The translations under genes and the position numbers were made by a program. DNA of 64,000 nt. Origin: an uncultured Syntrophomonadaceae bacterium. GTDB lineage: Bacteria > Bacillota > Dethiobacteria > DTU022 > PWGO01. Below the pieces are notes generated by a model. It worked only from the letters and a program-made list of their open reading frames with translations. It was not told the DNA's origin and did not search any database. This document shows positions 13,510-52,208 of the stretch, piece by piece; within the stretch, counting starts at the first letter, position 1; every line of letters begins with the position of its first letter. Location: NCBI GenBank assembly GCA_964636865.1, contig CAZWVJ010000006.1, positions 24,882 to 88,881 on the forward strand. The letters run 5' to 3'.

Positions 13510-13540
13510 AGAAGTCACCCTTTCTCCCGTTTAACCGGAA

Positions 13541-25673: not shown

Positions 25674-25940
25674 GATTATCAGCTCCTTTTAATATAATAT
25701 CTTCATATTCAAAACTATAATGTAAAATTTTGACCTCTTTTTCTTCTTTTCATACTTTAATCATAAGTACTGGCTGTTTAATTTTCAACCATTTCTCACA
25801 ATCTGTCCGTAAGCCTACAATTTATTAACCCTGACACTGCAATCGCTATTATATATTCCAATTTCAAAAGGAGAGGATTCCATGTTATATTTTTGATAAT
25901 TGGCCTTCTGAAATTAATATTAACTCATTTAAGTTAATCT

Positions 25941-26363: not shown

Positions 26364-26752
26364 ACCTCCCCTTAAATTCTATTATCGTTTCTTTTATTTC
26401 CCCGAGCAATTATAGTTATGAAAAAAATTATTTTTCCATCAGTTATAGATTTTTTAATATCTTATCAGTTGATTCCTCTTCTCTGTGTTATTATACAAAC
26501 CCTTTTTCTTCTAATAAATTAAGACATGAAAAATAACAATTATTACTATACTACTGGAAAAGCTGCCAGATGGATATTTATATGTCAAGACGACACCAAT
26601 GGGAAAATGAAGTAAAAGACTACCAAATACTAAAATACTATATGCTAACCCCGCATTTGAATCCATCATAGGGCTAAAAAAAGAAGAACTCGTGGACAAA
26701 AGTTTTTCGGAAATAATAGTAGAAGAACAACTACAAACAAATAAAATAAGTA

Positions 26753-26923
26753 TTAATGGAGAGGATAAAAAGGCATACCTTTGGTGTTTCCAAAATACTG
26801 GAACATTTTGGTACTTCCACAATCATTGCATACAACGTTTAGCCCTTTTTCTTTTTCTGCAACAGTCGCCCTTACCTCTTTTGTTTGGCGGCAATCCTCA
26901 CAAATAAAATCATAAACAGGCAT
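26753..26923 (-). CDS. FmdB-family zinc-ribbon protein (putative regulatory protein)
   Basis: 56 aa. MPVYDFICEDCRQTKEV...CNDCGS matches the FmdB signature MP-x-YE/DF-x-C-x-x-C...C-x-x-CG. AAGGAGG lies 7 nt upstream of ATG 26923. The 71-aa track ORF begins at an upstream alternative start. Confidence 0.65.
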   Translation of the reverse strand: MPVYDFICEDCRQTKEVRATVAEKEKGLNVVCNDCGSTKMFQYFGNTKGMPFYPLH

Positions 26924-26986
26924 ACAACAACCTCCTTTGATTTTAATAATTATCCACGAACCAAACATTTTAAAAAGCAGCGCTTG

Positions 26987-28534
26987 TTACTTCTCTTCCA
27001 TTTGCTTCATAATCTCTTCCCCTATAGCGTTTGCGCCACCAAATATAAATACATGGGGAAGTAAATCTGATGATAATGAATTCAGATAATCAACCACTGA
27101 CAGGGGCATATCTGTAGGTCCGGCAAGCAACATCGGAGCTTCAAGGGTAGCCGCATAGGCTCCACCGCTTAAAGCGTCGGGAAAATCTAAACCACTGGCA
27201 ATGGTAACATTAGAAGGCCCCTCAAAAAACCTTTCCGCTAAATTCACCGCAGTCTCCCACCGATTATTCCCCGCAATACGCTCACCGGCACCGGATTCTT
27301 CATATACTTCCTCACTGAGAACAGAGGCGCCTCCCACAACATAGACCTCCTCTAAATCATCCTTATAGCTTCTCAAAAATTCCTCCGTCTTTACATCCAA
27401 AGAGGAAGAAGGAGACAGCAAAGTTATACCTCCCCCGCTGGCAGCCACACTGGAGACAGCTAACGCATCAGGAAAATTCTCTCCCGTAGCCATAAAAACA
27501 GGAAAATTGCCTTCCTCCTTTTTCAAAAACTTTTTCCCTACCTTCACCGCAGTTTCATAACGATCGTTCCCGGCAAGCCTTTTCACTTCATAATCATAGT
27601 TTTCTTCTATCTCATATTGAACCTCCGCAGAAATAGCTGCATCACCGCCTAAAATATAAACAGTGCCATCAGACCGTAGTACACGTTCTATTTCTGCAGC
27701 AGTATCATCATGCAACCTATCCGCAGGGGTAAGCAAAAGAGGGCCATTGCTGTGATAAGCAAAGGGGCTCCCCGCCAAAGCATCGGAAAATTCATCTCCC
27801 CGTGCCAAAACCACCGCATCCGCCGATTGAGAATTGGGAAACGCTTCCCGGCTTATCTCCATCGCCGTCCGGTAGCGCGATTCTCCGAAAATACGATTCT
27901 TTGATTTAACAGATACAAGGACCTCCGTTCTTAATAACCCCCGGAGAAAATCATTAACAATACTTTCTCCATAAGTTGAAGACGGAGCCCATCTACCTCC
28001 GAGTTCTTCTACATATTTAATTGTCCCGGCCCAACTGGTAGTCAATACTACATAATATCTTCCATGGGGTTCACCCACAGGGTCAATATCTACATAAGCT
28101 CCAATATGATTAAAATGGCCACGGACGCCATCTTCCGGAGTGTCGAATTTTTCATGAGCGTCAGGGCAATCACAGGGCCCTCCCTCTGCTGTTTTGATGC
28201 CGGCCCAATTGTTAAAACAAGGCTCCACGACGCCGCCATATCTACCAAAAGCTGTTTCCTTGGCTGACTGCGCATAGAGAACTTCCGGCCTGATACCCAT
28301 TAACCTGCCATACTCCCAGTAAGTTGGCGCAATATCTATAAACCTCTGGTGAGCATCCCTGCTTTGAGCCCATTTTTGCGCTTGAGAAACAGAAATTTCC
28401 GGTTCACCTATTATAGGAGTTTTAGAAGAACAAACATTAATTTCTTCAGTCCATAAAACCTCATGCCCTAAAGCCAGGGAAAAAAATAGGGCTACCACAC
28501 AAATAATTAAAGTGTAACTTATTTTTTTTACCAT
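26987..28534 (-). CDS. Cell-wall hydrolase: N-terminal mannosyl-glycoprotein endo-beta-N-acetylglucosaminidase (GH73-like) domain + 3 CWB2 cell-wall-binding repeats
   Basis: 515 aa. Signal peptide. Glucosaminidase motif SAKETAFGRY...NNWAGIK. Three repeats of the ...NRYETAV...FPDALAGS...type (CWB2, as in clostridial Cwp proteins). Confidence 0.7.
   Translation of the reverse strand: MVKKISYTLIICVVALFFSLALGHEVLWTEEINVCSSKTPIIGEPEISVSQAQKWAQSRDAHQRFIDIAPTYWEYGRLMGIRPEVLYAQSAKETAFGRYGGVVEPCFNNWAGIKTAEGGPCDCPDAHEKFDTPEDGVRGHFNHIGAYVDIDPVGEPHGRYYVVLTTSWAGTIKYVEELGGRWAPSSTYGESIVNDFLRGLLRTEVLVSVKSKNRIFGESRYRTAMEISREAFPNSQSADAVVLARGDEFSDALAGSPFAYHSNGPLLLTPADRLHDDTAAEIERVLRSDGTVYILGGDAAISAEVQYEIEENYDYEVKRLAGNDRYETAVKVGKKFLKKEEGNFPVFMATGENFPDALAVSSVAASGGGITLLSPSSSLDVKTEEFLRSYKDDLEEVYVVGGASVLSEEVYEESGAGERIAGNNRWETAVNLAERFFEGPSNVTIASGLDFPDALSGGAYAATLEAPMLLAGPTDMPLSVVDYLNSLSSDLLPHVFIFGGANAIGEEIMKQMEEK
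26990..27890. repeat. Approximately 0.9-kb direct repeat, copy A (CWB2-repeat coding region of the glucosaminidase)
   Basis: Long runs of near-identical nucleotides shared with 28563-29480 (for example ccaccgcttaaagc[a/g]tcgggaaaatctaaaccactggcaa...). Antisense pseudo-ORFs 27710-27904 and 29298-29486 are also mirrored. Confidence 0.8.
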
Positions 28535-28559
28535 AAGAAAGCTCCTTGTATTTTGATTT

Positions 28560-30794
28560 TTAATACAATACTCTTACCAATTTAGCATAAATTATGTCTA
28601 AAACACTTTCCCTTATAGCATTTGAACCACCATATATATTTACTGCGGGTAAATTCGGATTTTTTGTTTCTAAATGAGCCATAACGGCTTCGGAAAGATT
28701 ATCAAGCCCGGTAAGCACCACCGGAGCTTCAAGAGTAGCCGCATGGGCTCCACCGCTTAAAGCATCGGGAAAATCTAAACCACTGGCAAAGGTAACATCG
28801 GAAGGTTCCTCAAAGAACCTTTCCGCCAACTTCACCGCAGTTTCCCACCGATTATTCCCCGCAATACGCTCACCGGCTCCGCATTGTTCATATACTCTCT
28901 CACTGAGGGCAGAGGTACCTCCCACAACATAGACCTCTTCTAAATCATCCTCATAGCTTACCAAAAATTCTGCTGCCTTCACCTCCAGTGACGAAGAAGA
29001 GGAAAGCAATATTATGCCCCCCCGACTGGCAGCAGCACTGGCCACAGCTAATGCATCAGGGAAATTCTCTCCCGTGGCCATAAAAACAGGAAAACTGCCT
29101 TCCTTATCTTCCAAAAACTTTTCCGCTATCTTAACAGCAGTTTCACAACGATCATCACCGGCAAGCCTTTTAACTTCATGATTAAAGTTTTCTTCTATCT
29201 CATCTTGAACTTCCGCAGAAATAGCAGCATCACCGCCTAAAATATAAACAGTACCATCAGACTGCAGAACACGTTCTATCTCATCAGCAGTATCATTATG
29301 CAATCTATCCTCAGGGGTAAGCAAAAGTGGGCCATTACTGTGATAAGCAAACGGACTACCCGCCAGAGCATCGGGAAAGTCATCTCCCCGCGCCAATACC
29401 ACCACCTCTGCCGATTGAGAATTAGAAAAAGCTTCCCGGCTTATTTCCACTGCAGTCCGGTAACGATTATCTCCATGAATACGTGAAACATCCGCAGTTT
29501 TAATAAAATGTTCCATTAAATGTTCCACACCATCTCTTATTTCAGAAAATTTATCATACAAATTATTCCCCGGGCAGCTTGTATTGCCTACATCTCTATG
29601 ACCGCATATGCGAGGAACATTATTTTTACCTCCTATGCTGGCTGAACCCAGTGGAGTTAGTGAATACTGGCTAAAACGCCAGGCAATTAATTTTTCCAGG
29701 CTGGACAAAGCCTCACCGGTGGGGTAGCCGGAATCAATCGCACTATAACCCGGTTGAAACTGCCCTATTAATGAAATCCCAACACTGGCCTGATTATTCC
29801 CCGAGCCGGCATGCGCTCCCTGCACATCCTGAAATTCCAGGTTATAATTTTCCCGGCCTTCATAAATGTTACCTTCATGGTCTATAAGAAAGTTATAACC
29901 GATATCCCACCAGTCTCTATTAATCGCATGATGATACCAAATATTTCTGACAACCTGCTCGGGGTTAGAAGGCTCGTTTTCAGTAGCAGTATGATGGATC
30001 ACAGCATGAGATACGTCTATAATGGGATATTCGGAAGGATCTCTGTAATTACCATCATCTTCATCTTTGCTTAAATCTCCTCCCCACTCTTCTCTCCTGA
30101 TAATATTAGGCATATTATTATAAGAAGTAGATAAGGGAAACAGCAAAGGCCTGATAGAACTCGCCAGAGTGGCATCATTCAAAGATAACTCTTCATCCTT
30201 TGTATTGCTTTTAGGTTTGTCATCTTTTTCTAAAGAGCCATCGGCTACTGAAACCTTTATATGATCAATTTCTTCATTTGCAGGAAGCTTAAACAATATT
30301 TCAAAAGAAGTATGAGGAGTATCTCCTTTTGTTAAATATAAATCAGACCAGCGCAAACCGGATGGGTTTTCCTCCGTCCGGCTATCCAAAACTAACTCAT
30401 GCCATTTTCCATACTGCCCGTTATTTTCTTTAGTGCGCACCTTGATCATATATTCTTCGAGGTTTAAAGATTCATCTACGGTGGAATCTGAGGAAGACTC
30501 CCCTCCTATTCCTATGCTTAAACCTGTAAAGGGAATCTCTGATTTACGTTCAAATCTATATGGCTTATCTTTCTCATATCCTTCCTGTAAAAACCATTTA
30601 AAATCCGCAGAAGGCATACCTGTTTTTTCTTCATTCAATTCAACCAAAGGATCACCGGCTTCTTGATATCCATCTGTATGCTTGCTAGCAGCTTCCACCG
30701 GTTCTATAATAATTATAATTAATAAAACTAAAGCTATACAATAACAAAACTTGAATTTTTTTAGGTAATTCAAGCCAAGCTCCTCCTTTTTCAT
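28560..30794 (-). CDS. Cell-wall hydrolase: N-acetylmuramoyl-L-alanine amidase (Amidase_2/PGRP) domain + 3 CWB2 repeats
   Basis: 744 aa. Signal peptide. Amidase_2 motifs (HHTATEN...GYNFLIDHEGNIYEGR...CGHRDVGNTSCPG). The C-terminal 300 aa are about 85-90% identical to the C-terminus of the adjacent glucosaminidase. Confidence 0.7.
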   Translation of the reverse strand: MKKEELGLNYLKKFKFCYCIALVLLIIIIIEPVEAASKHTDGYQEAGDPLVELNEEKTGMPSADFKWFLQEGYEKDKPYRFERKSEIPFTGLSIGIGGESSSDSTVDESLNLEEYMIKVRTKENNGQYGKWHELVLDSRTEENPSGLRWSDLYLTKGDTPHTSFEILFKLPANEEIDHIKVSVADGSLEKDDKPKSNTKDEELSLNDATLASSIRPLLFPLSTSYNNMPNIIRREEWGGDLSKDEDDGNYRDPSEYPIIDVSHAVIHHTATENEPSNPEQVVRNIWYHHAINRDWWDIGYNFLIDHEGNIYEGRENYNLEFQDVQGAHAGSGNNQASVGISLIGQFQPGYSAIDSGYPTGEALSSLEKLIAWRFSQYSLTPLGSASIGGKNNVPRICGHRDVGNTSCPGNNLYDKFSEIRDGVEHLMEHFIKTADVSRIHGDNRYRTAVEISREAFSNSQSAEVVVLARGDDFPDALAGSPFAYHSNGPLLLTPEDRLHNDTADEIERVLQSDGTVYILGGDAAISAEVQDEIEENFNHEVKRLAGDDRCETAVKIAEKFLEDKEGSFPVFMATGENFPDALAVASAAASRGGIILLSSSSSLEVKAAEFLVSYEDDLEEVYVVGGTSALSERVYEQCGAGERIAGNNRWETAVKLAERFFEEPSDVTFASGLDFPDALSGGAHAATLEAPVVLTGLDNLSEAVMAHLETKNPNLPAVNIYGGSNAIRESVLDIIYAKLVRVLY
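28563..29480. repeat. Approximately 0.9-kb direct repeat, copy B (CWB2-repeat coding region of the amidase)
   Basis: Paralogous copy of 26990-27890 at an estimated 85-90% nucleotide identity. Confidence 0.8.
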
Positions 30795-35317: not shown

Positions 35318-36232
35318 CTAATAAATTATAACCGGGTTATCATCTTCTATGATTCTATGTTCCTCTTCCAAGGCCCGCCGTATATTTTTAGGTATGGAAA
35401 ACATGCTCAGGTGAGTTTCCCCATCATAATATTTCAACTCTAATCCATTTTTTTCTAGATGCTTGTCAACTTCTGCCGGGACTACCTCACCGGGATCCCT
35501 ATCCTGCGAGGCCAAGATGAACCCCCAGGAAGAATCAAATGAAGGAATAAAAGTATGATAGGTATGTACAAAATTAAAACAACATTCCAGGGTATTTTTT
35601 ACTGCTGCATGGGAACTCAAAAGGGGCAAACTTAAAGAACCGGATTGCAAGGACAATGCTCCTCCCGGATTTAACCTTTTAATTAGTATGTTATAAAATT
35701 CTCGGGTAAAAAGAAGATAAGAAGGCCCTTCGTCAACCGGCTCTGTTAAGTCACTTATAATAACATCAAAGCAGCGATCATTTTCCTCAAGGTATTGACG
35801 GGCGTCCATGTGTAGCAGTTCCACTCTTTTATCGCTAAAACTGTTTTCATGCCAGGCGGGAAGATTTTCACGGCAGATATCTACTACTTCTTTATCTAGA
35901 TCCACCATTACAATGCTTTCGATAGAAGGATACTTTAACAATTCACGCAAAACAGCCCCCTCGCCACCTCCCATAATCAAAGCTTCCTTTGGAAGTGTAG
36001 GGTGTATTAGTATAGCAGGATGAACCAAAATTTCGTGATAAACATATTCATCCAATTCCGATGATTGAATCTTTCCATCCAAAACAAGACATCTGCCAAA
36101 TGCATAAGTGTCTACTATATCTACTCTCTGAAAAGCAGTACTGCCACTGTAAATATGTTGTTTGACTCCATACATATACCCGTGATATGGACTGGCATAA
36201 TCTATGAGCCAATTCCATTCCGGTATTCCCAC
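35318..36232 (-). CDS. speE: Spermidine synthase (polyamine aminopropyltransferase)
   Basis: 304 aa. LVLDGKIQSSELDEYVYHEILVHP...IMGGGEGAVLRELLKY...VDLD... is the canonical SpeE sequence. Confidence 0.85.
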   Translation of the reverse strand: MGIPEWNWLIDYASPYHGYMYGVKQHIYSGSTAFQRVDIVDTYAFGRCLVLDGKIQSSELDEYVYHEILVHPAILIHPTLPKEALIMGGGEGAVLRELLKYPSIESIVMVDLDKEVVDICRENLPAWHENSFSDKRVELLHMDARQYLEENDRCFDVIISDLTEPVDEGPSYLLFTREFYNILIKRLNPGGALSLQSGSLSLPLLSSHAAVKNTLECCFNFVHTYHTFIPSFDSSWGFILASQDRDPGEVVPAEVDKHLEKNGLELKYYDGETHLSMFSIPKNIRRALEEEHRIIEDDNPVIIY

Positions 36233-36551
36233 ATCCCAACCCCCTTGTTTAGCAGCTGATAAAAAAATATATTTAATATAAATAAAAATGATACTACTTT
36301 AATATCATTTTTATTTAGTCATGACCACTGATTTTCTTCATTAATTATACTTAATTATATCTATATTAGGAATTATAAGCAACCATTACAATTTCTTCCT
36401 TCAATTGGAAGCACGTAAAAAATTTTCTTTTTTTAGTATAAAAAAATGGCTTTTCCCCTGGTAAATACCTTCCATGCTAGCAAACTGCAAAGCAAGAAAT
36501 TACCCCTGTGTATAAGATAGCGGCCATAACTGACCACTAGGCAGCCTTCAA

Positions 36552-36935
36552 TCAATAACCTGCCGCAGTTTTATGTTCTACATTATAATCAAAAATGCCG
36601 CGCTTAATTTCCCTGGCCGTCATATTTTCAGCGGAAAACCGATGTTTGAGGTAATTACAAGAAACCCAGGGATCCACAGTTTCGCCGCAGGTAAATATAT
36701 CTACGGCTGCATAACCGAGCTCCGGCCAGGTATGAATGGTAAGATGGGATTCCGATATAACAACTACGCCGCTTAATCCCTGGGGCGAAAATTCATGAAA
36801 CACAGCCTCACGAACTTCTGCGCCGGCTTCTTTTGCAGCCCGCACCATATTATTCTTGACACCGGCTACATCATCCAGCACATTTTCGGGGCATCCATAA
36901 AATTCTACCAAAACATGACGGCCCAAAGCGCTCAT
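36552..36935 (-). CDS. speH: S-adenosylmethionine decarboxylase proenzyme (small class-1a form)
   Basis: 127 aa. [11 protein letters not shown]...[27 protein letters not shown] contains the ES/H self-processing site. Matches Bacillus SpeH/SpeD closely. Confidence 0.85.
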
Positions 36936-37275
36936 TTTAATACCTCCTTTATGAGAAATTTAACTTTAAACGAAGATGCAAATTTTAGGAAGCAACAATC
37001 TATATTTTAACAAACTCAACCAAAAATTCAATAATCTGCAAAAAGACAGTTTAAAAATATCATCTTTCATCTTTTCAAAGATATTTTGGCAATAATTAGG
37101 CTTTGGGAAAAGATTTGCAAAGAAAAACTGGACAAAATAAAAGAATAGCTGTATAAATGCAAGTAATTTCACGGTATGGTAAAATGTATTGCAAAACATT
37201 AAAAAAAATCTTGAAAGGCAATAATCAGTATCCCGGGAATGAACACAAAACGGCCTTTTAATTGGAGTGATTGAA

Positions 37276-41626: not shown

Positions 41627-42035
41627 ACTTACCCCTCCTGTCTCCTGTTTTCTTAAATCACAGCGGCAAATAAACTTCCTTAATTTAGCCGGAAAGTGAA
41701 ATACTTTCTTAACAAACATACTAATACATTAAGCCCTACCCGTAAAGTAATAAAGAAATATTGCTGTTAACTGCCATCCTAAGCTAATTTATAAAGCAAG
41801 AAGTTGAACATTTTGAAGAAATTATAAAAAAAATTTGCTATATATGTAGAAATATTGATCAAATTATGTTAAAATCTATAAACAATTTAATATCTAAAAA
41901 AATTCTTTATATAATCCAAATACATAGTAACACATAGTAGCAAATTAAAAGCACTGTCAGAAAAAATTCCGGCATGTTTTGCAATCGTTAATCTTGGCAA
42001 AACTCTTTTTTAAAAAGGAGGAGAGCTTAGAAAAA

Positions 42036-44276
42036 ATGATAAAGAAGAAGCAAATACCTTTAAATTTTGCCATTCTTGTTTATGTTTTTTTGATTTTAGC
42101 TTTCCTGTTTATCCTTGGTCATAATGAGATTATAGGGAATAAAATAGCAAGCACCGCATCCACAGCAAATATACACACTGAAATTCAGGAGAAGCTGGAT
42201 AAAGGCAAAGATTCAGTAGAGGCTATAATATTACTCGAAGAAAAAGCCAATACCGCAAAAGTATCGCAAGCAGTAAGGGAGCATGTCCGCCCCTTTGCCA
42301 GTGGAGAACAAATTAAAACCATGAGTTGCCGGGCAGTAGTAACTTCTCTTCAAAACACCGCAAAGAAAACCCAAGAACCCCTTTTGGATTACTTGCAAAG
42401 TGAAAAGGAAGAAAATAAGGTAGATAAAATTAAAGAGTTTTTTATAGTAAACGCCATTTATGTGAAAGCCGATTCTACAGTAATAGAAGCACTTTCCCAT
42501 GATTCGGCAGTAGATAAAATTATACCCAACTTAACTTTTAAGCTTCAGCAGGAAGAAATCTCGACAGATAAAACTTCTCCCACTGACGTCCAACCTTCCG
42601 AAGATAACCTGGAATGGGGTATTGAAAGAATAAATGCCCACCGGGTTTGGAATGAATTTGATATAGACGGGGAAGGAATCGTGATAGGTATTTTGGATAC
42701 AGGGGTGAATTGGGAACACGAAGCCTTGAAAGAGAAATGGCGGGGATATTGCCCTGACGGCAACCATGATCCAACATACAGCTGGTATGATGCCAAATAT
42801 GGTAAAAATATGCCGGTAGATGTAAGTGAGCACGGTACCCACGTTGCGGGCACTGCCGTAGGTGCTGATCCGGATGGCAAAAATAAAATTGGTGTGGCAC
42901 CCGGCTCACAGTGGATAGCGGCAAATGCTTTTAATAACAATGAGAGTGCTGAGTACAGTGACCTCATAGAAGCTGGAGAGTACCTTCTTGCTCCAGATGG
43001 CAACCCGGATAAGTCTCCGGATATCATTACCAATGCCTGGGGAGGACCTTGGCGTGACAACCCGATTTTCAGGGAAGTGATCCAGAGATGGCGGGATGCC
43101 GGGATTTTCCCGGTAGTAGCTGCCGGTAACACCCGCAATGGAGCACACAAAGGCTCCATCTTACTTCCGGGTATTTACCCGGAAAGTATAACCGTGGGGG
43201 CCACTAACAGCAATGATCGGCGAGCGGATTGGTCCAACCGGGGTCCGGCAAAGTATTATCCCGAAGAATTAAAACCCAACATTTCCGCCCCGGGGAATAA
43301 TATTCGTTCAGCAACAAAAGGCATCGCCGGCTACGATTATAAAAGCGGCACTTCAATGGCTACCCCTCATGTTGCGGGAGCAGCAGCCTTGTTACTTTCC
43401 TACGACCAAGGCTTATCTGTGGAAAAAGTAGAAGAAACTCTCTTCTCTACCGCTACTCCCCGGACAGATGAGGATTACGATGACTATCCCAATTACGGCT
43501 ATGGGTACGGCATTGTTAACGCTGCAGCAGCAATAGATTCCTTGCACTACGAAGTCACTATCGAGGATGATGGACTGGAAGAAGTTATACGCCAAAAGTT
43601 GGACAAAGAAAACAATGAAGACTATCTGGAATACGTTTTAACCAGAATAGACATGGAGCAGTTGGAAGAACTGGACCTCAGCGGAAAAACTATTGAAAGC
43701 CTGGCAGGGCTGGAATATGCTATAAACTTGGAAAATCTTTACCTGGGGAAAGATAAACCTGTTCCTGTCATAATGACCTACTTAGAAATTGCTTCTAATA
43801 ATATATTTGTCAGTACCAATGAAACCGACAAAGAAGAAATAATTAAACTCAATGTAATTCCCGGCAACGCTGACATACATGATATTACGTGGACATCAAA
43901 TGATCCTTTTATGGCCGAAGTTGCAAATTTTGAAGAAGATAATAAATCTACAATTTATCCTCGGGCAACAGGCTCTACGGAAATTATTAATAAAGTTAAA
44001 AGTGTAACCCTTGAGGGAAAAGAAAGTATTCATGAAACTACCTGCAAAATAGAAGTTATTAAGTATGGAGATGTAACTGGAGACGGTAACATAAAAGTAG
44101 CTGATTCCATTAATATTTTAAGACATGTTGTAGAAATTAAAAAACTTGAGGGGTGTTATAAAGAAGCCGCTCTGGTAGCAGATAATAACAATGAGAATGT
44201 CTCCTCTAAAGATGCTTTAACTATCTTGCGATACCTCGTTGGACGTCAGGAAGAACTTCCGGTTGGGGTAAATTAA
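42036..44276 (+). CDS. Secreted S8 subtilisin-like serine peptidase with I9 propeptide, LRR segment, Ig-like region and C-terminal type-I dockerin
   Basis: Catalytic triad regions GILDTGV (Asp), HGTHVAGT (His) and GTSMATPHVAGAAALL (Ser). The N-terminus has a signal/transmembrane anchor. LRR-like LEELDLSGKTIESLAGLEYAINLENLYLG. C-terminal duplicated dockerin segments GDVTGDGNIKVADSINILRHVV and ADNNNENVSSKDALTILRYLVG. The start is ATG 42036. Confidence 0.8.
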   Translation: MIKKKQIPLNFAILVYVFLILAFLFILGHNEIIGNKIASTASTANIHTEIQEKLDKGKDSVEAIILLEEKANTAKVSQAVREHVRPFASGEQIKTMSCRAVVTSLQNTAKKTQEPLLDYLQSEKEENKVDKIKEFFIVNAIYVKADSTVIEALSHDSAVDKIIPNLTFKLQQEEISTDKTSPTDVQPSEDNLEWGIERINAHRVWNEFDIDGEGIVIGILDTGVNWEHEALKEKWRGYCPDGNHDPTYSWYDAKYGKNMPVDVSEHGTHVAGTAVGADPDGKNKIGVAPGSQWIAANAFNNNESAEYSDLIEAGEYLLAPDGNPDKSPDIITNAWGGPWRDNPIFREVIQRWRDAGIFPVVAAGNTRNGAHKGSILLPGIYPESITVGATNSNDRRADWSNRGPAKYYPEELKPNISAPGNNIRSATKGIAGYDYKSGTSMATPHVAGAAALLLSYDQGLSVEKVEETLFSTATPRTDEDYDDYPNYGYGYGIVNAAAAIDSLHYEVTIEDDGLEEVIRQKLDKENNEDYLEYVLTRIDMEQLEELDLSGKTIESLAGLEYAINLENLYLGKDKPVPVIMTYLEIASNNIFVSTNETDKEEIIKLNVIPGNADIHDITWTSNDPFMAEVANFEEDNKSTIYPRATGSTEIINKVKSVTLEGKESIHETTCKIEVIKYGDVTGDGNIKVADSINILRHVVEIKKLEGCYKEAALVADNNNENVSSKDALTILRYLVGRQEELPVGVN

Positions 44277-44308: not shown

Positions 44309-45604
44309 TTACTCTTCTTCATTTTCTTCCTCATCTTCTACTTGGTCATCTTTTTCCGAAGCATCCTCTTCCTCGTCTCCATAACCATTCTCACTGCCAT
44401 TTTCGGCATCATCTTCTTCTGCTTCTTCACCTTCAAATTCTTCATCCACCGAATTGTTTTCGTTTTCTTCTACCTCTAATTCTCCTTCCGGCTCAGGTTC
44501 CGGTTCAGGCGGGGGATCATACTCAACTTCAGGTTCACTCTCTTCTTCTACCGGTGGAACTTCTTCTTGCGGTGTAACTCTTTGACCGGGGAGAGGTTTC
44601 TGCGGTCTCTTCTCTACTGCTACCCCAAAAACATCTTCAATCAATTCTACTCTTTTTTCTTCATCCACTACCAGGTACCAAATACCGCGTGCATCATGCT
44701 GACCACTTCCTTCAAAAGTGTAGGCATCAATTTCGGAAGTATCTATTTCCATCCCATACAGCGCTAACGCCCCCATCTGGGAAACCGAAAGGTTTGTGTC
44801 CACATGTTCCTGCAAAGATCTATATATCTCGGGAACTTGTTTTAGCTTGCCCCTATCTTTCATTTGTTCAAAAGCTTCTATCATTATATTTTGCTGTCTC
44901 TCCATTCTGGCAAAGTCATGATCCATATGTCGGGCCCGAAGATACTCCATAAATTTATCTCCGTCCAATTTCTGAAATCCCTCGTGGACGACTATCTCGC
45001 CCCGGCCGGCATGAGAGCGCACCGTAACATCAACATCATAATATATGCCGCCCACGGTATCGATAATTTCTACCACACCATCCATATCCAGAACTACATA
45101 ATAATGCATGGGCACTCCACCCAGGAAATTTTGGATGGTTCTCACAGTGGTTTTAATCCCGTTTAAATGAGGATCTTGAGCTCCCGGGTTCCGATAGCCG
45201 TACCCATACGCATGGTTAATTTTGTCATGTCCATCTTGACCATAAATTTCCACATAAGTATCTCGCTGAATACTAATTATAGAAACATCTTTAGTTTCAA
45301 AATTAATAGAGAGCACCATGATAGTGTCCGGACGATAAGCTCCATTTCCGTACTCATCATCACGGGAAGCTTTCCGGTCAAAACCCAAAAGGGCAAAATT
45401 AATAATATTTTTGTCAAAGTTACGGGCAACTTCGCTTTCCCAATCTACCATGGAATCTCCATTTTCCTGAGGTTGTAAAATCCTGAGTGTATCCTGCATG
45501 TGGTTATAAACCGTAGCCCCGGCTAGTATAAGAACCACTGCACAAGCCACTACAATTAAAATAATTCTTATTATTTTCTGTTTCCGAGTTCTTTTTCGTT
45601 TCAT
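44309..45604 (-). CDS. LytR-CpsA-Psr (LCP) family cell-wall glycopolymer phosphotransferase with long acidic C-terminal tail
   Basis: 431 aa. N-terminal transmembrane helix, LCP core (...RPDTIMVLSIN...IISIQRDTYVEI...). The last approximately 120 aa are Glu/Asp/Pro-rich low complexity. Confidence 0.75.
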   Translation of the reverse strand: MKRKRTRKQKIIRIILIVVACAVVLILAGATVYNHMQDTLRILQPQENGDSMVDWESEVARNFDKNIINFALLGFDRKASRDDEYGNGAYRPDTIMVLSINFETKDVSIISIQRDTYVEIYGQDGHDKINHAYGYGYRNPGAQDPHLNGIKTTVRTIQNFLGGVPMHYYVVLDMDGVVEIIDTVGGIYYDVDVTVRSHAGRGEIVVHEGFQKLDGDKFMEYLRARHMDHDFARMERQQNIMIEAFEQMKDRGKLKQVPEIYRSLQEHVDTNLSVSQMGALALYGMEIDTSEIDAYTFEGSGQHDARGIWYLVVDEEKRVELIEDVFGVAVEKRPQKPLPGQRVTPQEEVPPVEEESEPEVEYDPPPEPEPEPEGELEVEENENNSVDEEFEGEEAEEDDAENGSENGYGDEEEDASEKDDQVEDEEENEEE

Positions 45605-46049
45605 TTACTTCTGCCCCCCATCTTTGCCTATTAAATCATAAGTCTGGCAATGTAAGGTTGATAGGGCCATTATGTAACAAATAGGTAATATAAAATTATA
45701 GCTATTATCATTATTCTTGTTTTTCATATTATCTTCCCTTACTCTTAAACAAAATAATTATTAACTAAATACTTCCCCAATAGATATTACGGAAATTTTT
45801 ATTATTTTCTTTTTACTTAAAGACTTTAAAGGCTTATAATCCTCACTTAACTCTTTCTTAATTTGTTCCTTATGATTAAAAATATCATTAAAAAAATCTT
45901 ATCTTCAAATAAAAAGGTTAATATATAATGTTATATAGTTTAATCTACAATATGGATTAATCCTGCATATTTCATCTTAAAATATCATAACATATAAACC
46001 TATATCTACACTTATATGTTAAAAAAGTTTAATGCTGGCAGCTTATTCT

Positions 46050-47429
46050 TTAGCAGCCTATGCCCAGGTAAGTAAATCCGCAATTCTGCATCTCTTCGCC
46101 GGAAAGATAATTACGCCCATCAATAAATATCGCCTGGCGCATAGTTTCCGCCAGATCCTGCCAGGGCACATGCAAAAAATGCTCCCAGTCAGTTAAAAGA
46201 ACCAATGCATCACTTTCCCGAGCTGTTTCTTCCACCGTGGAAGCATAAGTTATATCTTGATGGGGAAAATTCTGACGGTAGTTTTCCAATGCTACCGGAT
46301 CATAAACCTTAATACTGGCACCCATCTCCAATAATTCAGCAATAATTTCAATAGCCGGGGATTCCCGAATATCATCGGTATTGGGTTTGAAAGCCAGGCC
46401 TAAAATACCTATAGTACTGCCGCGAATTACCTTTAAAGAAGCCTGTAGTTTCTCTACAATCCTTTTGCGCTGTTTATGATTTATCTCTACAGCCGCTGAA
46501 GTAATAGGCATATCCACTCCATACTGTTTACCGGTAAAGAGAATTGACCGCGTATCCTTGGGAAAACAACTACCACCCCAACCTACACCGGCATTTAAAA
46601 ACCCCGACCCAATCCGCTTATCCAGGCCTATCCCTTTGGCCACTTCTCGAATATCCGCTCCCACACGCTCGGCAATGCCGGAAAATTCATTGATAAATGA
46701 AATCTTCATGGCTAAAAAGGCATTGGAAGCATATTTAATGAGTTCCGCGCTGGTAGGTGCTGTAGTGACAAAAGCAGGCATTCCGTAGCTTTCCGGGCGA
46801 GGAACTAGCCGGGGCGGCGTAAAAGTTTGCTCCAATATGGGAGCATACATCTGGCGTAGCACATTTACCGCTTGCAGCTCATCTGCTCCTATCACAATCC
46901 GATCCGGATAAAAAGTATCATGCAGAGCCGCGCCTTCACGCAAAAATTCAGGATTGGAAGCTACACTGTAATTACCTTCAAGCCCTCTCTTCCTTAGCTC
47001 TTCTTTGATTACCGTATCTACACGGCTGGCCGTGCCAATGGGAACCGTAGACTTGTTTACCACCACCAGGAATTTTTCCGGCGCTATAGTGTCTCCTATT
47101 TCCCTGGCTACATTTTCTACATAAGTAAGGTCGGTATCTCCGTTATACTTGGCAGGAGTACCCACTGCAATAACCACTACATCAGAATCCGGCAAACTAT
47201 CCGGCAGGTTTCCGGAAAAAGATAAATTTGCAGCAGCTTCGACTAAAAGCTCTTCCACACCCGGCTCATAAATAGTAGCTGTACCATTTTTTAGTTTTTC
47301 AACCACTTCCGGATTTTTATCTACACAGGTAACACGGTGCCCCAAATAAGCAAGCGCCACGCCGGTAGTTAGGCCCACATACCCGGTGCCCACAATGGTT
47401 ATGGCAAGTTTTTCGCTTTTCATAGTCAT
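46050..47429 (-). CDS. ugd: UDP-glucose 6-dehydrogenase / nucleotide-sugar dehydrogenase
   Basis: 459 aa. N-terminal IVGTGYVGLTTGVALA NAD-binding motif and catalytic Cys region (GGSCFPKD). Confidence 0.85.
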   Translation of the reverse strand: MTMKSEKLAITIVGTGYVGLTTGVALAYLGHRVTCVDKNPEVVEKLKNGTATIYEPGVEELLVEAAANLSFSGNLPDSLPDSDVVVIAVGTPAKYNGDTDLTYVENVAREIGDTIAPEKFLVVVNKSTVPIGTASRVDTVIKEELRKRGLEGNYSVASNPEFLREGAALHDTFYPDRIVIGADELQAVNVLRQMYAPILEQTFTPPRLVPRPESYGMPAFVTTAPTSAELIKYASNAFLAMKISFINEFSGIAERVGADIREVAKGIGLDKRIGSGFLNAGVGWGGSCFPKDTRSILFTGKQYGVDMPITSAAVEINHKQRKRIVEKLQASLKVIRGSTIGILGLAFKPNTDDIRESPAIEIIAELLEMGASIKVYDPVALENYRQNFPHQDITYASTVEETARESDALVLLTDWEHFLHVPWQDLAETMRQAIFIDGRNYLSGEEMQNCGFTYLGIGC

Positions 47430-47632
47430 GGAATATTAATACTCCTTTCCAAAAATTCTAAATTTCTGTATTCTATTATAATTTCCGTAATGATTATTTA
47501 CAACCTCCTGCCTTTCTGCGAGAAATACGGCTTAAATATCTGCCTGAGTTCATTTTTTATTTCTTGCCTTAAGTTTACCTAATAAAATTACCCACTTCTT
47601 TTTTTACCCAAAGGAAACTGTATCTTTTTTAT

Positions 47633-48457
47633 CTATCGCAAACGCCGGTACCCCCATTCTTTAACAAAAAAAGGCATGAGTCGGAAAGCTAAGGTAGAAA
47701 ATTTAAGCACATTTAAGCGAGGTGACCATGTATTGTACTTATAACGAGCCCTCAGCTGACGTATTAAATTATCTTTTTCTGAAGATCGACTGACAGTTTC
47801 GCCGGTACGAAAATATTGCAGAGGTTCGGTAAGATTGTTGATAACCACATTTTCCCGCAATGCCCGCGCCCAGAGTTCTATATCCTGCTGGGTAAAAAAA
47901 TGCACATTATATAAACCAATACGAGCAAAGACAGAGCGGCGAAATATTACAGAAGAATGCACCAGGGGGCTGCGATAATGAAAAAAAGCTTCTATGTGGG
48001 GTTTATCTGCAGGCATTTTGCGCAAAAAACAATTCTCATTCGAAGGGTCTTTTTTGAATTCCCAGGCAGAGGTACCCAAAATATCTACTTCCGGATGCTT
48101 TTCCATAAATGTTAATTGCTTCTCAAGCCTTTCAGGATGCGCAATATCATCAGCATCCATCCTGGCATAATAAGGAGTTGTCGTATAAAGGATTGAGTAG
48201 TTAAGCGCATAAGGAAGCCCTTCATTTTGGGGAATTCTCAAAAGCTGAATATTTTCATTACCCCGCACATAACTTTCGACCAGGCGGGCAAGATTATCAC
48301 TAATGGGGCCGTCCTGGATAAGATGGATACTTTCAGGCAACAAAGTTTGCTTGAGAATAGAATCTACAGCTTCCTGAAATTGCTCGGTATTGCTTCCCCT
48401 ATAAAAAGGTATCCCTACCGTTATTCCCGAGCGATTAACGGCAAAATTTCTCTTCAT
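47633..48457 (-). CDS. Family 2 glycosyltransferase
   Basis: 274 aa. GT-A fold motifs (ITVGIPFYRG...DAD). Sits in a cell-wall polysaccharide context. Confidence 0.7.
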   Translation of the reverse strand: MKRNFAVNRSGITVGIPFYRGSNTEQFQEAVDSILKQTLLPESIHLIQDGPISDNLARLVESYVRGNENIQLLRIPQNEGLPYALNYSILYTTTPYYARMDADDIAHPERLEKQLTFMEKHPEVDILGTSAWEFKKDPSNENCFLRKMPADKPHIEAFFHYRSPLVHSSVIFRRSVFARIGLYNVHFFTQQDIELWARALRENVVINNLTEPLQYFRTGETVSRSSEKDNLIRQLRARYKYNTWSPRLNVLKFSTLAFRLMPFFVKEWGYRRLR

Positions 48458-50845: not shown

Positions 50846-51340
50846 CTATTTTTTCTTATTCTTATTTTTACTCTTTTTCTTATTCTTATTACCGGAGTTG
50901 TTTTTTGATTTCGCTTTTTGCTGAGAGTTATTATTGGAAGTGCCGGAGCTATTTTTCATAGTATTGCTGTTGTTCTGTTTCTGCTTTTTCTTCTGCTGGT
51001 TTTCCAAGGCCCTCTTCTGCTGTCTGGTGAGATTTTTCTCCTTGGTACGGTTGTTATAAACCTTGTAGCCGGCAGCTCCAACGGCCAGTCCCCCTGCTAA
51101 CACCAAAAAGGGCCAAGCAGCCATCATATCCGTTTCTGCTTCTGTCTCATATTGGGGTTCATCTGGCTCAGGAGTTTCTGTGTCTTCGGATTCTTCCACA
51201 GTCCCCGGATCAGGTATTATTCCATCCTCACCTTCTTCTAAGCATGCCGCACAAGCCATTAATACTCCCGCAGCGAAAATTAAAGCCACCGTAATGAGGC
51301 AACGTTCCCAGATTTTCAACTTTCGAGGATTTTCTTTCAT
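50846..51340 (-). CDS. Small membrane protein with acidic ectodomain and Lys/Asn-rich C-terminal tail (hypothetical)
   Basis: 164 aa. Two hydrophobic helices flank an E/D/T/P-rich loop. The C-terminal 50 aa are K/N/Q/S low complexity. A GGAGGA ribosome-binding site lies upstream. It is the last gene of the His-rich ABC module. Confidence 0.45.
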   Translation of the reverse strand: MKENPRKLKIWERCLITVALIFAAGVLMACAACLEEGEDGIIPDPGTVEESEDTETPEPDEPQYETEAETDMMAAWPFLVLAGGLAVGAAGYKVYNNRTKEKNLTRQQKRALENQQKKKQKQNNSNTMKNSSGTSNNNSQQKAKSKNNSGNKNKKKSKNKNKKK

Positions 51341-51410
51341 TATTACTTATCCTCCAGTTCAAAGAAATAATATAGACCTCGAAAACCTTCTACAAGTAAT
51401 CTCTTTGAAA

Positions 51411-52208
51411 TTAATCCATTCTGGCCATCTCATTGGACCACTCAAAATACTCATCCCAAAGAGCTATTACATCTTCCCTGTATGCAGAAAGGTTTTCTTC
51501 TTCTCCTTCCTCCATGAGTTCATTGATTTCTTCTGCCAGTTCTTTTACTTCTTTTAATATCCCCAAAAGAGGCTCAAAAGAATCTACTCCATACCCTTCC
51601 ACTTGATTGATAAGGGCTTCTATTTCACCTATGTCTATCTGTTCCATCTCCTCTTCGGGCGTTTCCTCGGCGGTATAGGCTTGCATTTCGTTCATGACTC
51701 CCAGAAATTCCATCCCCACTCCATCTGCAGTGAGCATAGCATATTCCTGCAGCGACTGGGGCATTTCATCTTTATCCGCAACCTTCAGGTCATTCACATG
51801 TATACGGAAAGGGGTAGTGTAACCGAATTCATCGGTTTTTTCCTCTACTTCCAACTCGCCGCTAACAGTCACCGGTTCTTCGGTAAATTCAATAGAATCA
51901 CCCGCCGGAGCCATGGCAGGTATGGCAGAAACCGGAATGTCGGTACCAGGTATGCAGTAAGGACACTCTACCATGGGAGCGTTGGTCAAGTAAATAAAAC
52001 TACCGTCCAGCGGTGACTGCATAGCCATAAAACCGGTCATGGATACATTATCTCCATCCAGTTCCTTTACCCTCTGTGAAATGTTAAAGTCTTCATCCCA
52101 CAGCTCGGCAAATTGGAGGTGGGCGCTCTCCCCCGGTTCTCCCTCACATCCTGCTGCAAGCAATAAAACAATTGTAGTGAGAATTATCAGTATTTTTTTC
52201 ATATTCAA
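51411..52208 (-). CDS. Lipoprotein of unknown function (CxxC-containing, acidic C-terminal half)
   Basis: 265 aa. Lipobox LLLAAGC. The mature domain contains ECPYCIPG. The C-terminus is Glu-rich. Its start is 3 nt after the upstream FtsX permease stop. Confidence 0.5.
   Translation of the reverse strand: MNMKKILIILTTIVLLLAAGCEGEPGESAHLQFAELWDEDFNISQRVKELDGDNVSMTGFMAMQSPLDGSFIYLTNAPMVECPYCIPGTDIPVSAIPAMAPAGDSIEFTEEPVTVSGELEVEEKTDEFGYTTPFRIHVNDLKVADKDEMPQSLQEYAMLTADGVGMEFLGVMNEMQAYTAEETPEEEMEQIDIGEIEALINQVEGYGVDSFEPLLGILKEVKELAEEINELMEEGEEENLSAYREDVIALWDEYFEWSNEMARMD

What the first reader, a model, noticed from the sequence alone, without database searches (positions are those of the whole stretch)
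44040..44276. Type-I dockerin module at the C-terminus of an LRR-containing subtilase
The last approximately 70 residues contain the duplicated calcium-binding segment pattern of type-I dockerins (GDVTGDGNIKVADSINILRHVV and ADNNNENVSSKDALTILRYLVG). Dockerins imply a cohesin-bearing scaffoldin elsewhere in the genome. A dockerin on a protease that also has LRR and Ig-like regions suggests recruitment of a peptidase into a cell-surface multiprotein complex, which is uncommon outside cellulolytic clostridia.
Basis: partly seen in the sequence, partly recalled or inferred. Interest (0 to 1): 0.5.

Follow-up and report, generated by a model that had tools for sequence, protein, structure and literature searches.

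The report
Dockerin tail on a secreted subtilase
A secreted subtilisin-type protease from a soda-lake anaerobe really does end in a dockerin module, most likely a tether to a cell-surface cohesin protein, but such protease–dockerin fusions are already known and no partner was found in the DNA available.

Summary
The gene (window 42036..44276, +, 746 aa from the ATG) ends in a dockerin at 44064..44237. Pfam alone is marginal (22.2 bits against a cutoff of 22.9). Four other lines agree: PDB sequence hits are all dockerins (best E=4e-7, the C. thermocellum S8-protease double dockerin); 6 of 8 homologous C-termini match Dockerin_1; the best AF2 model matches only dockerins (TM 0.78/0.83); and dN/dS is about 0.2.

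The interpretation needs three corrections.
- **Second Ca2+ loop:** it is degenerate, with Ala at position 1 where 93% of dockerins have Asp.
- **The "LRR":** it is only an internalin-like cap plus about two repeats. The Ig-like domain is weakly supported.
- **Rarity:** dockerins on proteases outside cellulolytic clostridia are not rare. The profile matches 44,838 cluster representatives, and S8–dockerin fusions were catalogued in 2008.

No cohesin lies in the window or in about 10 kb of extra flanks. The whole genome could not be searched. A homologous S8–dockerin gene elsewhere sits directly upstream of two membrane-anchored cohesin proteins and an LRR lipoprotein. That supports simple cell-surface tethering over a scaffoldin-based complex. 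Verdict: a new member of a known kind, of modest interest.

The parts
42036..44276 (+). Complete gene for a 746-aa pre-pro-subtilase with a C-terminal dockerin. It is a stand-alone transcription unit: the upstream gene is divergent and the downstream LytR_CpsA_Psr gene is convergent.
   Evidence: ORF. ATG start supported by the SD sequence at 42016-42024 and by the exact 746-aa product on record. Neighbour orientations.
41887..41915 (+). Promoter-like site (TTAATA-17-TATAAT), about 120 nt upstream of the start codon.
   Evidence: Consensus scan, 10 of 12 matches. This is a pattern match only, not evidence of function.
42036..42119 (+). N-terminal signal peptide or signal anchor (MIKKKQIPLNFAILVYVFLILAFLFILG).
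   Evidence: Read directly from the sequence: a KKK n-region followed by a hydrophobic stretch of about 19 residues. Inferred; no signal-peptide predictor was available.
42366..42545 (+). I9-like propeptide segment (aa 111-170) within the pro-region (about aa 29-200).
   Evidence: Pfam Inhibitor_I9 E=0.005, 17.8 bits, below the cutoff of 21.2. The region is conserved in all close homologues.
42669..43511 (+). Peptidase S8 catalytic domain (aa 212-492) with triad D221 (DTG), H266 (HGTH) and S440 (GTSMA).
   Evidence: Pfam PF00082 E=3.8e-58. Triad motifs located. dN/dS 0.08.
43545..43763 (+). Internalin-type LRR N-cap plus about two LRR repeats (aa 504-576). This is a truncated LRR stub.
   Evidence: PDB phmmer against internalin B cap and first LRRs, E=1.2e-4. 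LRR_4 E=0.0076, below cutoff. 57% identity over 54 aa to the start of P0002's full LRR domain. dN/dS about 0.4.
43776..44051 (+). All-beta, probably Ig-like (Big_2-like) domain (aa 581-672), immediately preceding the dockerin with no linker.
   Evidence: Big_2 E=0.05, below cutoff, but the segment aligns to the clear Big_2 domain of P0003 (E=2.3e-14). The AF2 model is all-beta here with pLDDT about 60-73, and Foldseek hits are Ig-like domains, including 2l04, deposited as the Ig-like C-terminal domain of the lambda tail tube protein. Low confidence.
44064..44237 (+). Dockerin module (aa 677-734): two loop-helix segments joined by a short linker helix.
   Evidence: dN/dS 0.20 against the 91% orthologues.
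44070..44105 (+). First 12-residue Ca2+-binding loop, DVTGDGNIKVAD. Near-canonical: D1, T3, D5, G6, I8, K9, D12.
   Evidence: Register statistics against 566 dockerin loops: T3 in 11%, K9 in 1.1%, the other positions are the majority residues.
44178..44213 (+). Second 12-residue loop, ADNNNENVSSKD. Degenerate: A1, N3, N5, E6, V8, S9, D12.
   Evidence: Position 1 is Ala in 0.4% and Asp in 93% of 545 loops. E6 occurs in 3%, against Gly in 79%. The orthologue P0001 has AYNNDGNVSSKD, which also has Ala at position 1.

Best explanation
The gene encodes a secreted pre-pro-subtilisin (S8) whose C-terminal extension ends in a genuine dockerin module.

The most likely mechanism has four steps:
- The enzyme is exported through its N-terminal signal sequence and matures by removal of the I9-like propeptide (inferred).
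- The dockerin binds a cohesin domain on a cell-envelope-anchored protein encoded elsewhere in the genome (inferred by homology).
- This tethers the active protease to the producer's own surface.
- There it would cut extracellular proteins into peptides (inferred).

The partner is more likely a simple anchoring protein with one cohesin than a multi-cohesin scaffoldin. The system is therefore surface display of a protease, not a cellulosome.

The truncated LRR cap and the Ig-like domain serve as spacer or auxiliary binding elements. The second Ca2+ site of the dockerin is probably weakened, so binding probably relies mainly on one functional loop-helix face.

Shown: the domain identities, the intact catalytic triad, purifying selection on the dockerin, and cohesin neighbours in a homologue. 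Inferred: secretion, the existence of a cohesin partner in this genome, and surface tethering.
For: **Dockerin identity.**
- Pfam matches the full length of the Dockerin_1 profile.
- The top PDB sequence hits are all dockerins. The best is the double dockerin of the C. thermocellum S8 protease Clo1313_0689 (E=4e-7).
- 6 of 8 homologous C-termini match Dockerin_1 on their own (best E=1e-10).
- The family profile retrieves PF00404 proteins down to E=2e-20.
- The AF2 model has pLDDT 84.6 and pTM 0.76 with a helix-linker-helix layout.
- Foldseek: the top 30 hits are all dockerins, with TM 0.78/0.83 to 4uyq_B.

**The module is maintained.** dN/dS is 0.20 in the dockerin against 0.18 for the whole gene.

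**Tethering role.**
- Homologous S8 proteases carry other wall-anchoring modules at the same C-terminal position: CWB2 in P0006, P0007 and L019, and SLH in P0008.
- Homologue P0011 (S8 plus a canonical dockerin) is followed on the same strand by three genes, in two independent assemblies. The first is a 290-aa protein with signal peptide, cohesin, linker and TM anchor. The second is a 1214-aa protein with a cohesin, repeats and a TM anchor. The third is an LRR lipoprotein.
- The LRR stub of the target is homologous to that lipoprotein and to the fused LRR domain of P0002.

**Active, exported enzyme.** The triad is intact and the N-terminus looks like a signal sequence.
Against: - No cohesin was found in the 64-kb window or in the extra flanks on the 171-kb contig. 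None lies next to the related soda-lake dockerin protease in L017 either. The rest of the genome could not be searched.
- Pfam Dockerin_1 is just below its gathering threshold.
- Loop 2 lacks the near-invariant Asp-1 and the Gly-6, so Ca2+-dependent folding or binding may be impaired.
- Only one of the five AF2 models was confident, and the MSA had only 8 rows.
- The homologue with adjacent cohesins is distant: 41% identity in the S8 domain and 58% GC against 43% here.
- The literature notes that dockerin presence alone does not establish function (PMC9012536).
Confidence: 0.5

Rival explanations
1. Orphan dockerin-like module. The fold is a dockerin, but this genome has no cohesin. The module acts as a small (semi-)Ca2+-binding stabilising tail, or it binds something else such as a cell-wall polymer or substrate.
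For: No cohesin in the window or flanks. The second Ca2+ loop is degenerate. The related soda-lake dockerins of P0003 and P0004 have even more degenerate loops. The module class is extremely abundant (44,838 representatives). The literature says these domains occur in many organisms with unclear function (PMC9012536). Free Ca2+ is limiting in soda lakes (PMC6780208).
Against: The helices that form the cohesin-binding face are well conserved (DxxxILRxxV). Purifying selection is as strong as in the rest of the gene. A family member has cohesin genes immediately adjacent. Only about 75 kb of a genome that is presumably several Mb was inspected.
Confidence: 0.3
2. The protease is a subunit of a large cellulosome-like multi-enzyme complex assembled on a multi-cohesin scaffoldin.
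For: Dockerin-bearing peptidases are genuine cellulosome components in C. thermocellum, R. flavefaciens and the soda-lake species C. alkalicellulosi (PMC6780208; PMC12484212). A second, different dockerin-bearing S8 protease (P0003/L017) co-occurs in the same two datasets with the same GC content. This hints at more than one dockerin protein in the organism.
Against: The window holds only one dockerin and no cohesin, CBM or glycoside-hydrolase-with-dockerin gene. The nearest named genome is a Syntrophomonadaceae MAG, not a known cellulolytic lineage. The only visible partners in this protease family are membrane-anchored proteins with one Pfam Cohesin match each. Co-occurrence in a metagenome does not show that two genes share a genome.
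Confidence: 0.12
3. Not a real domain. The similarity is a chance EF-hand-like resemblance in a low-information C-terminal tail.
For: The Pfam score is below the gathering cutoff. Calmodulins appear among the weak PDB hits. Four of the five AF2 models had low confidence.
Against: All of the strongest sequence and fold hits are dockerins, not generic EF-hands, and calmodulin-type hits have TM of about 0.3 or less. The homologous position in related proteases scores Dockerin_1 at E=1e-10 and 35.6 bits in L022. The module is conserved under purifying selection.
Confidence: 0.03

Closest known systems
C. thermocellum Clo1313_0689 S8 protease with a double-dockerin module (dDoc_0689; PDB 8x39/8x3a; Chen et al. 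2024, as described in review PMC12484212)
   Same: It is an S8 subtilisin-type protease carrying C-terminal dockerin(s), and it is the best PDB sequence hit (E=4e-7) and a top fold hit. Its proposed role is to anchor the protease to the cell surface through the cohesin of a cell-bound scaffoldin, not to join the enzyme complex.
   Different: The target has one dockerin, not a tandem pair, and its second Ca2+ loop is degenerate. An LRR stub and an Ig-like domain sit between the protease and the dockerin. The host is a non-cellulolytic-type soda-lake anaerobe (nearest genome a Syntrophomonadaceae MAG) with no cellulosome genes in view. The partner cohesin is unknown.
Uncharacterised operon of S8-dockerin, two TM-anchored cohesin proteins and an LRR lipoprotein, found here in L012/L013 (protein P0011)
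   Same: Same S8 subfamily: 41% identity, with the same propeptide and core motifs. The dockerin is at the C-terminus, and an LRR module of the same type is associated with it.
   Different: In L012 the cohesin genes are adjacent and the dockerin loops are canonical. In the target no cohesin is adjacent, the LRR is reduced to a fused stub, and loop 2 is degenerate. The organisms differ (58% against 43% GC).
Non-cellulosomal dockerin/cohesin modules of diverse bacteria and archaea (Peer et al. 2009, as cited in PMC9012536; S8-dockerin architectures in Halobacterium NP_280653.1 and in accession NP_691157.1, PMC2605481)
   Same: A dockerin fused to a subtilase in an organism not known to degrade cellulose, with no scaffoldin evident.
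   Different: Those are catalogue entries with different accessory domains (PA, tandem dockerins). None is reported with the combination of LRR stub, Ig-like domain and dockerin.
Type I dockerins of classical cellulosomal enzymes and adaptor scaffoldins (e.g. A. cellulolyticus ScaB dockerin 4uyq_B; C. thermocellum Xyn10B 1ohz_B)
   Same: The same fold and two-segment layout: TM 0.78/0.83 to 4uyq_B and 29-37% identity over 57-73 aligned columns.
   Different: Those have two canonical Ca2+ loops and known cohesin partners, and they recruit glycoside hydrolases or scaffoldins. Here loop 2 is degenerate and the cargo is a protease.

Membership tests
Dockerin (Pfam PF00404 Dockerin_1) | Profile match at or above Pfam's gathering score | tested here: inconclusive
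   22.2 bits against a cutoff of 22.9 for the isolated 78-aa segment, covering profile positions 1-56 of 57 (E=1.6e-4). Only 14.6 bits in the whole protein. Homologous C-termini pass: best E=1e-10, and L022 scores 35.6 bits.
Dockerin (Pfam PF00404 Dockerin_1) | Significant sequence similarity to experimentally characterised dockerins | tested here: met
   phmmer against the PDB: 8x39_A E=4.1e-7, 4uyq_B E=1.4e-4, followed by about 15 further dockerins.
Dockerin (Pfam PF00404 Dockerin_1) | Module of about 60-70 aa made of two tandem loop-helix (F-hand) segments joined by a linker, with the three-helix dockerin fold | tested here: met
   AF2 model: helices at 20-30, 38-43 and 56-66, pLDDT 84.6 (1 of 5 models). 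Foldseek: the top 30 PDB hits are all dockerins, with TM up to 0.78/0.83.
Dockerin (Pfam PF00404 Dockerin_1) | Canonical Ca2+-ligand residues (positions 1, 3, 5, 9, 12) in both 12-residue loops | tested here: inconclusive
   Loop 1 is D/T/D/K/D: acceptable, though K9 is rare. Loop 2 is A/N/N/S/D: Asp-1 is missing (Ala in 0.4% against Asp in 93% of 545 loops) and Gly-6 is replaced by Glu. 12% of reference second loops are also non-canonical.
Dockerin (Pfam PF00404 Dockerin_1) | Ca2+-dependent binding to a cohesin | not testable with these tools
   This needs binding assays or co-folding with a candidate cohesin, and no candidate was identified.
Cohesin-dockerin system in this genome | At least one cohesin (PF00963) protein encoded by the same genome | not testable with these tools
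   Only the 64-kb window and about 10 kb of flanks could be inspected. No cohesin was found there by Pfam or by a six-frame scan with a cohesin HMM.
Cellulosome / multi-enzyme scaffoldin complex | A scaffoldin with multiple cohesins plus many dockerin-bearing carbohydrate-active enzymes | tested here: not met
   Within the sequence available there is one dockerin, no cohesin, no CBM and no glycoside hydrolase with a dockerin. A genome-wide census was not possible.
Type I dockerin (sub-type) | Specific binding to type I cohesins, or phylogenetic placement with type I dockerins; no X-module dyad | not tested
   The nearest solved structures are type-I-class (4uyq, 1ohz, 2ccl, 4dh2), but no phylogeny or binding test was done. 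An Ig-like domain abuts the dockerin without a linker, so an X-Doc-like dyad cannot be excluded.
Peptidase S8 (subtilase) | Subtilase fold with the catalytic triad in the order Asp-His-Ser | tested here: met
   PF00082 E=3.8e-58 over the full profile. D221 (DTG), H266 (HGTH) and S440 (GTSMA).
Leucine-rich repeat domain (internalin type) | A tandem array of LRR units forming a solenoid | tested here: inconclusive
   Only the cap plus about two repeats are present. InlB cap and LRR1-2 score E=1.2e-4 and LRR_4 scores E=0.0076, below cutoff. Homologue P0002 has the full array, and the target diverges after the first repeat or two. The AF2 model of this part is unreliable.
Bacterial Ig-like domain group 2 (Big_2, PF02368) | Profile match at or above the gathering score, or a Big_2 beta-sandwich fold | tested here: inconclusive
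   E=0.05, 14.0 bits against a cutoff of 22.8. The segment aligns at 28% to the clear Big_2 domain of P0003. The low-confidence all-beta model gives generic Ig-like hits.

The most novel reading that the evidence does not exclude
The target belongs to a minimal, non-cellulosomal cohesin-dockerin 'protease display' system found in anaerobic Firmicutes. In this system an S8 protease docks onto single-cohesin, membrane-anchored proteins and works together with an LRR module. The LRR module is a separate lipoprotein in L012, is fused in P0002, and is vestigial here. In the soda-lake lineage the dockerin has lost one canonical Ca2+ site, as also seen in P0003 and P0004. This could be an adaptation to Ca2+-poor alkaline brines that gives Ca2+-independent or single-site docking.
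Probability: 0.15. Interest if true: 0.5.

Novelty: new member of a known kind. Interest (0 to 1): 0.25.

Why it matters
If the tethering model is right, this is one more case of cohesin-dockerin pairs used outside cellulose degradation, here to display a protease on the surface of a soda-lake anaerobe. That would bear on how such organisms scavenge protein and peptides. The window also encodes an oligopeptide ABC transporter and tandem M42 aminopeptidases.

The degenerate second Ca2+ loop in a Ca2+-poor habitat is a small, testable question about whether dockerin function depends on Ca2+.

The S8-dockerin / anchored-cohesin / LRR operon found in a relative gives a concrete candidate family of partners to look for. 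None of this changes current understanding, because protease-dockerin fusions and non-cellulosomal dockerins are established.

Tried and rejected
- **Word-indexed homologue search with the target and P0001 dockerins (A2).** Only 5 candidates shared words and none scored. One failed attempt came from an out-of-range E-value.
- **The same search with the more diverse alignment A3.** It returned almost only short gene fragments, with no architectures and no cohesin.
- **Literature search for '8X39'.** All hits were irrelevant. PMC3035643 (Peer 2009) and PMC10949318 (Chen 2024) are not held, so both are cited only through papers that cite them.
- **Exact look-ups with wrong inputs.** The TTG-start version of the protein failed. 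One minus-strand end gene failed because I trimmed the start codon instead of the stop, and one GTG-start plus-strand ORF was simply not on record. The first two were corrected; for the right end a different gene was used. The same coordinate slip affected the minus-strand ORFs sent to Pfam. They lost residue 1 and kept the stop, which does not change domain calls.
- **Walking along the 171-kb source contig.** Look-ups are restricted to window proteins, so only about 5 kb was gained on each side.
- **AF2 model of the LRR-stub plus Ig-like region.** pLDDT was 48, so its fold search is only indicative.
- **Top 150 hits of the exhaustive representative search.** They were multi-dockerin proteins and told me nothing about partners.
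- **P0055 neighbourhood.** No cohesin.
- **Weak cohesin-like hit in L019.** It turned out to be a second S8 protease with CarboxypepD_reg repeats, not a cohesin.
- **Considered and rejected.** Reading the module as a generic EF-hand or calmodulin-like domain: those PDB hits have E>0.2 and TM of about 0.3 or less.
Full report
**What is there.** The finding lies at the 3' end of a single + strand gene. The ORF listing gives 41979..44276 from a TTG, but the real start is the ATG at 42036. An AAGGAGGAG Shine-Dalgarno sequence lies at 42016-42024. The 91%-identical homologue P0001 starts at the same Met. The exact 746-aa product is on record in NCBI, ENA and Logan assemblies (P0121). All residue numbers below use the 746-aa protein.

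**Origin.** The source contig is ENA ERZ27266004 k141_356924 (171,316 bp). The window covers roughly positions 82-146 kb of it. The nearest named genome is the MAG 'Syntrophomonadaceae bacterium isolate B1Sed10_75', at 91% protein identity for this gene. Orthologues occur in the JGI sample SL_8KL_010_SED, whose name I read as a soda-lake sediment, and in several SRR16248xxx runs, always with the same neighbours. The window is therefore chromosomal DNA of an uncultured anaerobic Firmicute related to that MAG. The habitat and the relationship are inferences.

**Architecture of the protein.**
- **N-terminus:** MIKKKQ followed by a hydrophobic stretch of about 19 residues, which looks like a signal peptide or anchor (read from the sequence).
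- **Pro-region:** a weak I9-like match at aa 111-170 (E=0.005).
- **Catalytic domain:** Peptidase_S8 at aa 212-492 (E=3.8e-58) with D221, H266 and S440.
- **aa 504-576:** resembles the internalin B N-cap plus its first repeats (PDB E=1.2e-4; LRR_4 E=0.0076). It is 57% identical over 54 aa to the start of the long LRR domain of homologue P0002. After about two repeats the similarity stops, so the 'LRR' is a truncated stub.
- **aa 581-672:** all-beta. Big_2 scores only E=0.05, although the segment aligns to a clear Big_2 domain of P0003 (E=2.3e-14). The AF2 model is poor (pLDDT 48 overall, about 60-73 in this half) and hits only generic Ig-like domains. One of these is 2l04, deposited as the Ig-like C-terminal domain of the lambda tail tube protein. 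'Ig-like' is plausible but not established.
- **aa 677-734 (window 44064-44237):** the dockerin.

**Is it a dockerin?**
- **Pfam alone is marginal.** The match covers the whole profile (1-56 of 57) but scores 22.2 bits against a cutoff of 22.9 for the isolated segment, and 14.6 bits in the full protein.
- **PDB sequence search.** phmmer places only dockerins at the top: 8x39 E=4.1e-7, 4uyq_B E=1.4e-4, then the Cel5A, Xyn10B, Cel9 and CelS dockerins. Calmodulins appear only at E>0.2. 8x39 is the double dockerin of Clo1313_0689, which is itself deposited as a serine protease.
- **Homologous C-termini.** The same position in related S8 proteases is a dockerin. 6 of 8 aligned C-termini hit Dockerin_1 on their own (best E=1e-10). 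L022 scores 35.6 bits. A profile of these C-termini retrieves PF00404-annotated proteins down to E=2e-20.
- **Predicted fold.** AF2 on the 78-aa segment gave one confident model out of five (pLDDT 84.6, pTM 0.76), with loop-helix, short linker helix, loop-helix. In Foldseek against the PDB the top 30 hits are all dockerins (TM 0.78/0.83 to 4uyq_B), while EF-hand proteins score TM of about 0.3 or less.
- **Selection.** Between the target and its 91% orthologues the dockerin has dN/dS of about 0.20, from about 17 synonymous and 14 non-synonymous differences. The whole gene gives 0.18 and the S8 core 0.08. The module is therefore maintained, not decaying. The counts are small, and the three orthologues are nearly identical to each other, so this is effectively one comparison.
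- **Conclusion.** I regard the dockerin assignment as about 90% secure.

**The Ca2+ loops.** I anchored on the conserved Asp-12 of each loop and compared the target with about 550 dockerin modules fetched. This reference set is biased toward the query profile.
- **Loop 1 (DVTGDGNIKVAD):** it has the majority residue at positions 1, 5, 6 and 12. T3 occurs in 11% of loops and K9 in 1.1%.
- **Loop 2 (ADNNNENVSSKD):** it has Ala at position 1, where 93% have Asp and only 0.4% have Ala. It has Glu at position 6, where 79% have Gly. The orthologue P0001 reads AYNNDGNVSSKD, also with Ala-1.

From established EF-hand and F-hand chemistry (my own knowledge), loss of the position-1 carboxylate should weaken or abolish the second site. 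The related soda-lake proteases P0003 and P0004 have even more degenerate loops, whereas P0011 is canonical. A cellulosome paper on a soda-lake Clostridium notes that free Ca2+ is limiting in soda lakes (PMC6780208). A link between habitat and loop degeneracy is therefore conceivable but untested.

**Context and the cohesin question.** The gene stands alone: the upstream nitroreductase gene is divergent and the downstream LytR_CpsA_Psr gene is convergent. A Pfam scan of 41 window ORFs found no cohesin and no second dockerin. Six-frame scans with a dockerin HMM and with a cohesin HMM built from L012 also found nothing else in the window. The extra flanks visible on the source contig hold xerC-hslVU-codY on one side and LicD, CTP-transferase and ABC-F genes on the other, with no cohesin or dockerin.

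**What the relatives show.** This S8 subfamily carries different C-terminal modules at the same position:
- Dockerin: the target, P0003/L017, P0004, P0011 and L022.
- CWB2: P0006, P0007 and L019.
- SLH: P0008.
- A full LRR domain: P0002.

CWB2 and SLH are cell-wall anchors. The window's own organism uses CWB2 for two adjacent peptidoglycan hydrolases. Exchange of such modules at one position argues that the dockerin here is also a localisation device.

The homologue P0011 is the most telling case. It has an S8 domain and a canonical dockerin, and in two independent assemblies three genes follow it on the same strand:
- a 290-aa protein with a signal peptide, one cohesin (51 bits), a Pro/Gly/Asp-rich linker and a C-terminal TM helix;
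- a 1214-aa protein with an N-terminal cohesin (46 bits), many repeats of about 90 aa and a C-terminal TM helix;
- a 197-aa LRR lipoprotein.

That lipoprotein is homologous to the LRR domain of P0002 (about 40% identity, E=7e-16) and, more weakly, to the target's stub (30% over 71 aa). In this family, then, the dockerin can have membrane-anchored cohesin partners, each with one Pfam Cohesin match, and an LRR companion. No such genes adjoin the target or the soda-lake relative L017.

A second, different dockerin-bearing S8 protease (P0003/L017, 55-60% identical) co-occurs with the target or its orthologue in two datasets: Logan SRR16248214 and JGI SL_8KL_010_SED. Its GC content is the same. This is compatible with two dockerin proteins in one organism but does not prove it.

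**Mechanism.** The best-supported reading is a secreted subtilase tethered to the producer's envelope by dockerin-cohesin binding. [quoted passage not shown] Its authors propose surface anchoring and not integration into the enzyme complex (review PMC12484212). I give this 0.5. The rivals are an orphan dockerin-like tail with no cohesin (0.3), a true scaffoldin-based multi-enzyme complex (0.12), and a chance resemblance (0.03).

**Novelty.** Subtilase-dockerin architectures in non-cellulolytic prokaryotes were listed in 2008 (PMC2605481). Dockerin-bearing peptidases are known in several cellulosomes. Cohesin and dockerin modules are known in many non-cellulolytic bacteria and archaea (PMC9012536). 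The profile built here matches 44,838 cluster representatives at E<=1e-3. The claim that this is uncommon is therefore wrong. The target is a new member of a known kind with some unusual details: the vestigial LRR cap, an Ig-like domain abutting the dockerin without a linker, and the degenerate second loop.

Noticed in passing
L012 10001-17409 (also L013 8174-15582): An apparent operon in an unrelated organism with about 58% GC. It encodes an S8 protease with a canonical dockerin, a 290-aa protein (signal peptide, cohesin, linker, TM anchor), a 1214-aa protein (cohesin, about ten repeats, TM anchor), and a 197-aa LRR lipoprotein. It looks like a minimal non-cellulosomal cohesin-dockerin system for displaying a protease, and I found no description of it.
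   Followed up: partly
window 10198-14611 (- strand): Three tandem M42 glutamyl-aminopeptidase paralogues (10198-11229, 11277-12311, 12439-13518), followed by a 356-aa ORF with no Pfam match (13541-14611). An oligopeptide ABC transporter (SBP_bac_5, two permeases, fused ATPase) lies at 18635-23847. Together with the secreted subtilase this suggests a peptide-scavenging lifestyle.
   Followed up: no
window 26987-30794 (- strand): Two adjacent cell-wall hydrolases, each anchored by three CWB2 repeats: a glucosaminidase at 26987-28534 and an Amidase_2 at 28560-30794. This shows the organism uses CWB2 for wall attachment. Homologues of the target protease in other lineages carry CWB2 in place of the dockerin.
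   Followed up: partly
window 44309-45604 (- strand): The convergent LytR_CpsA_Psr gene ends only 32 bp from the protease stop codon. Its product has an extremely acidic, Glu/Asp-rich C-terminal tail of about 100 residues (EEEDASEKDDQVEDEEENEEE...).
   Followed up: no
L017 1-2960 and L029 370-3774: A second dockerin-bearing S8 protease (P0003, 1134 aa) with Flg_new_2, Big_2 and Big_5 domains and very degenerate Ca2+ loops. It co-occurs with the target or its orthologue in the same two datasets at the same GC content. It may be a paralogue in the same organism.
   Followed up: partly
window 50846-52208 (- strand): Two unannotated genes next to a MacB/FtsX-type ABC exporter. One is a 265-aa acidic lipoprotein (lipobox LLLAAGC). 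The other is a 164-aa membrane protein with a long Lys/Asn-rich low-complexity tail. Neither has a Pfam match.
   Followed up: no
window 61544-63967 and L008 1-5127: A large GT2 plus GT1-like glycosyltransferase (807 aa). Just beyond the window's right end lie two LicD-family genes and a CTP-transferase. This looks like a cell-wall glycopolymer decoration cluster, near the UDP-glucose dehydrogenase, GT2 and LytR_CpsA_Psr genes at 44309-48457.
   Followed up: no
window 25673-26987 and 36232-37267: Two stretches of more than 1 kb without any ORF of 150 aa or more and without an Rfam match at gathering threshold. In related contigs (L001 and L003) an AdoMet decarboxylase gene of about 127 aa is called between the spermidine synthase gene and the 5'-nucleotidase gene; that interval matches the second stretch.
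   Followed up: no
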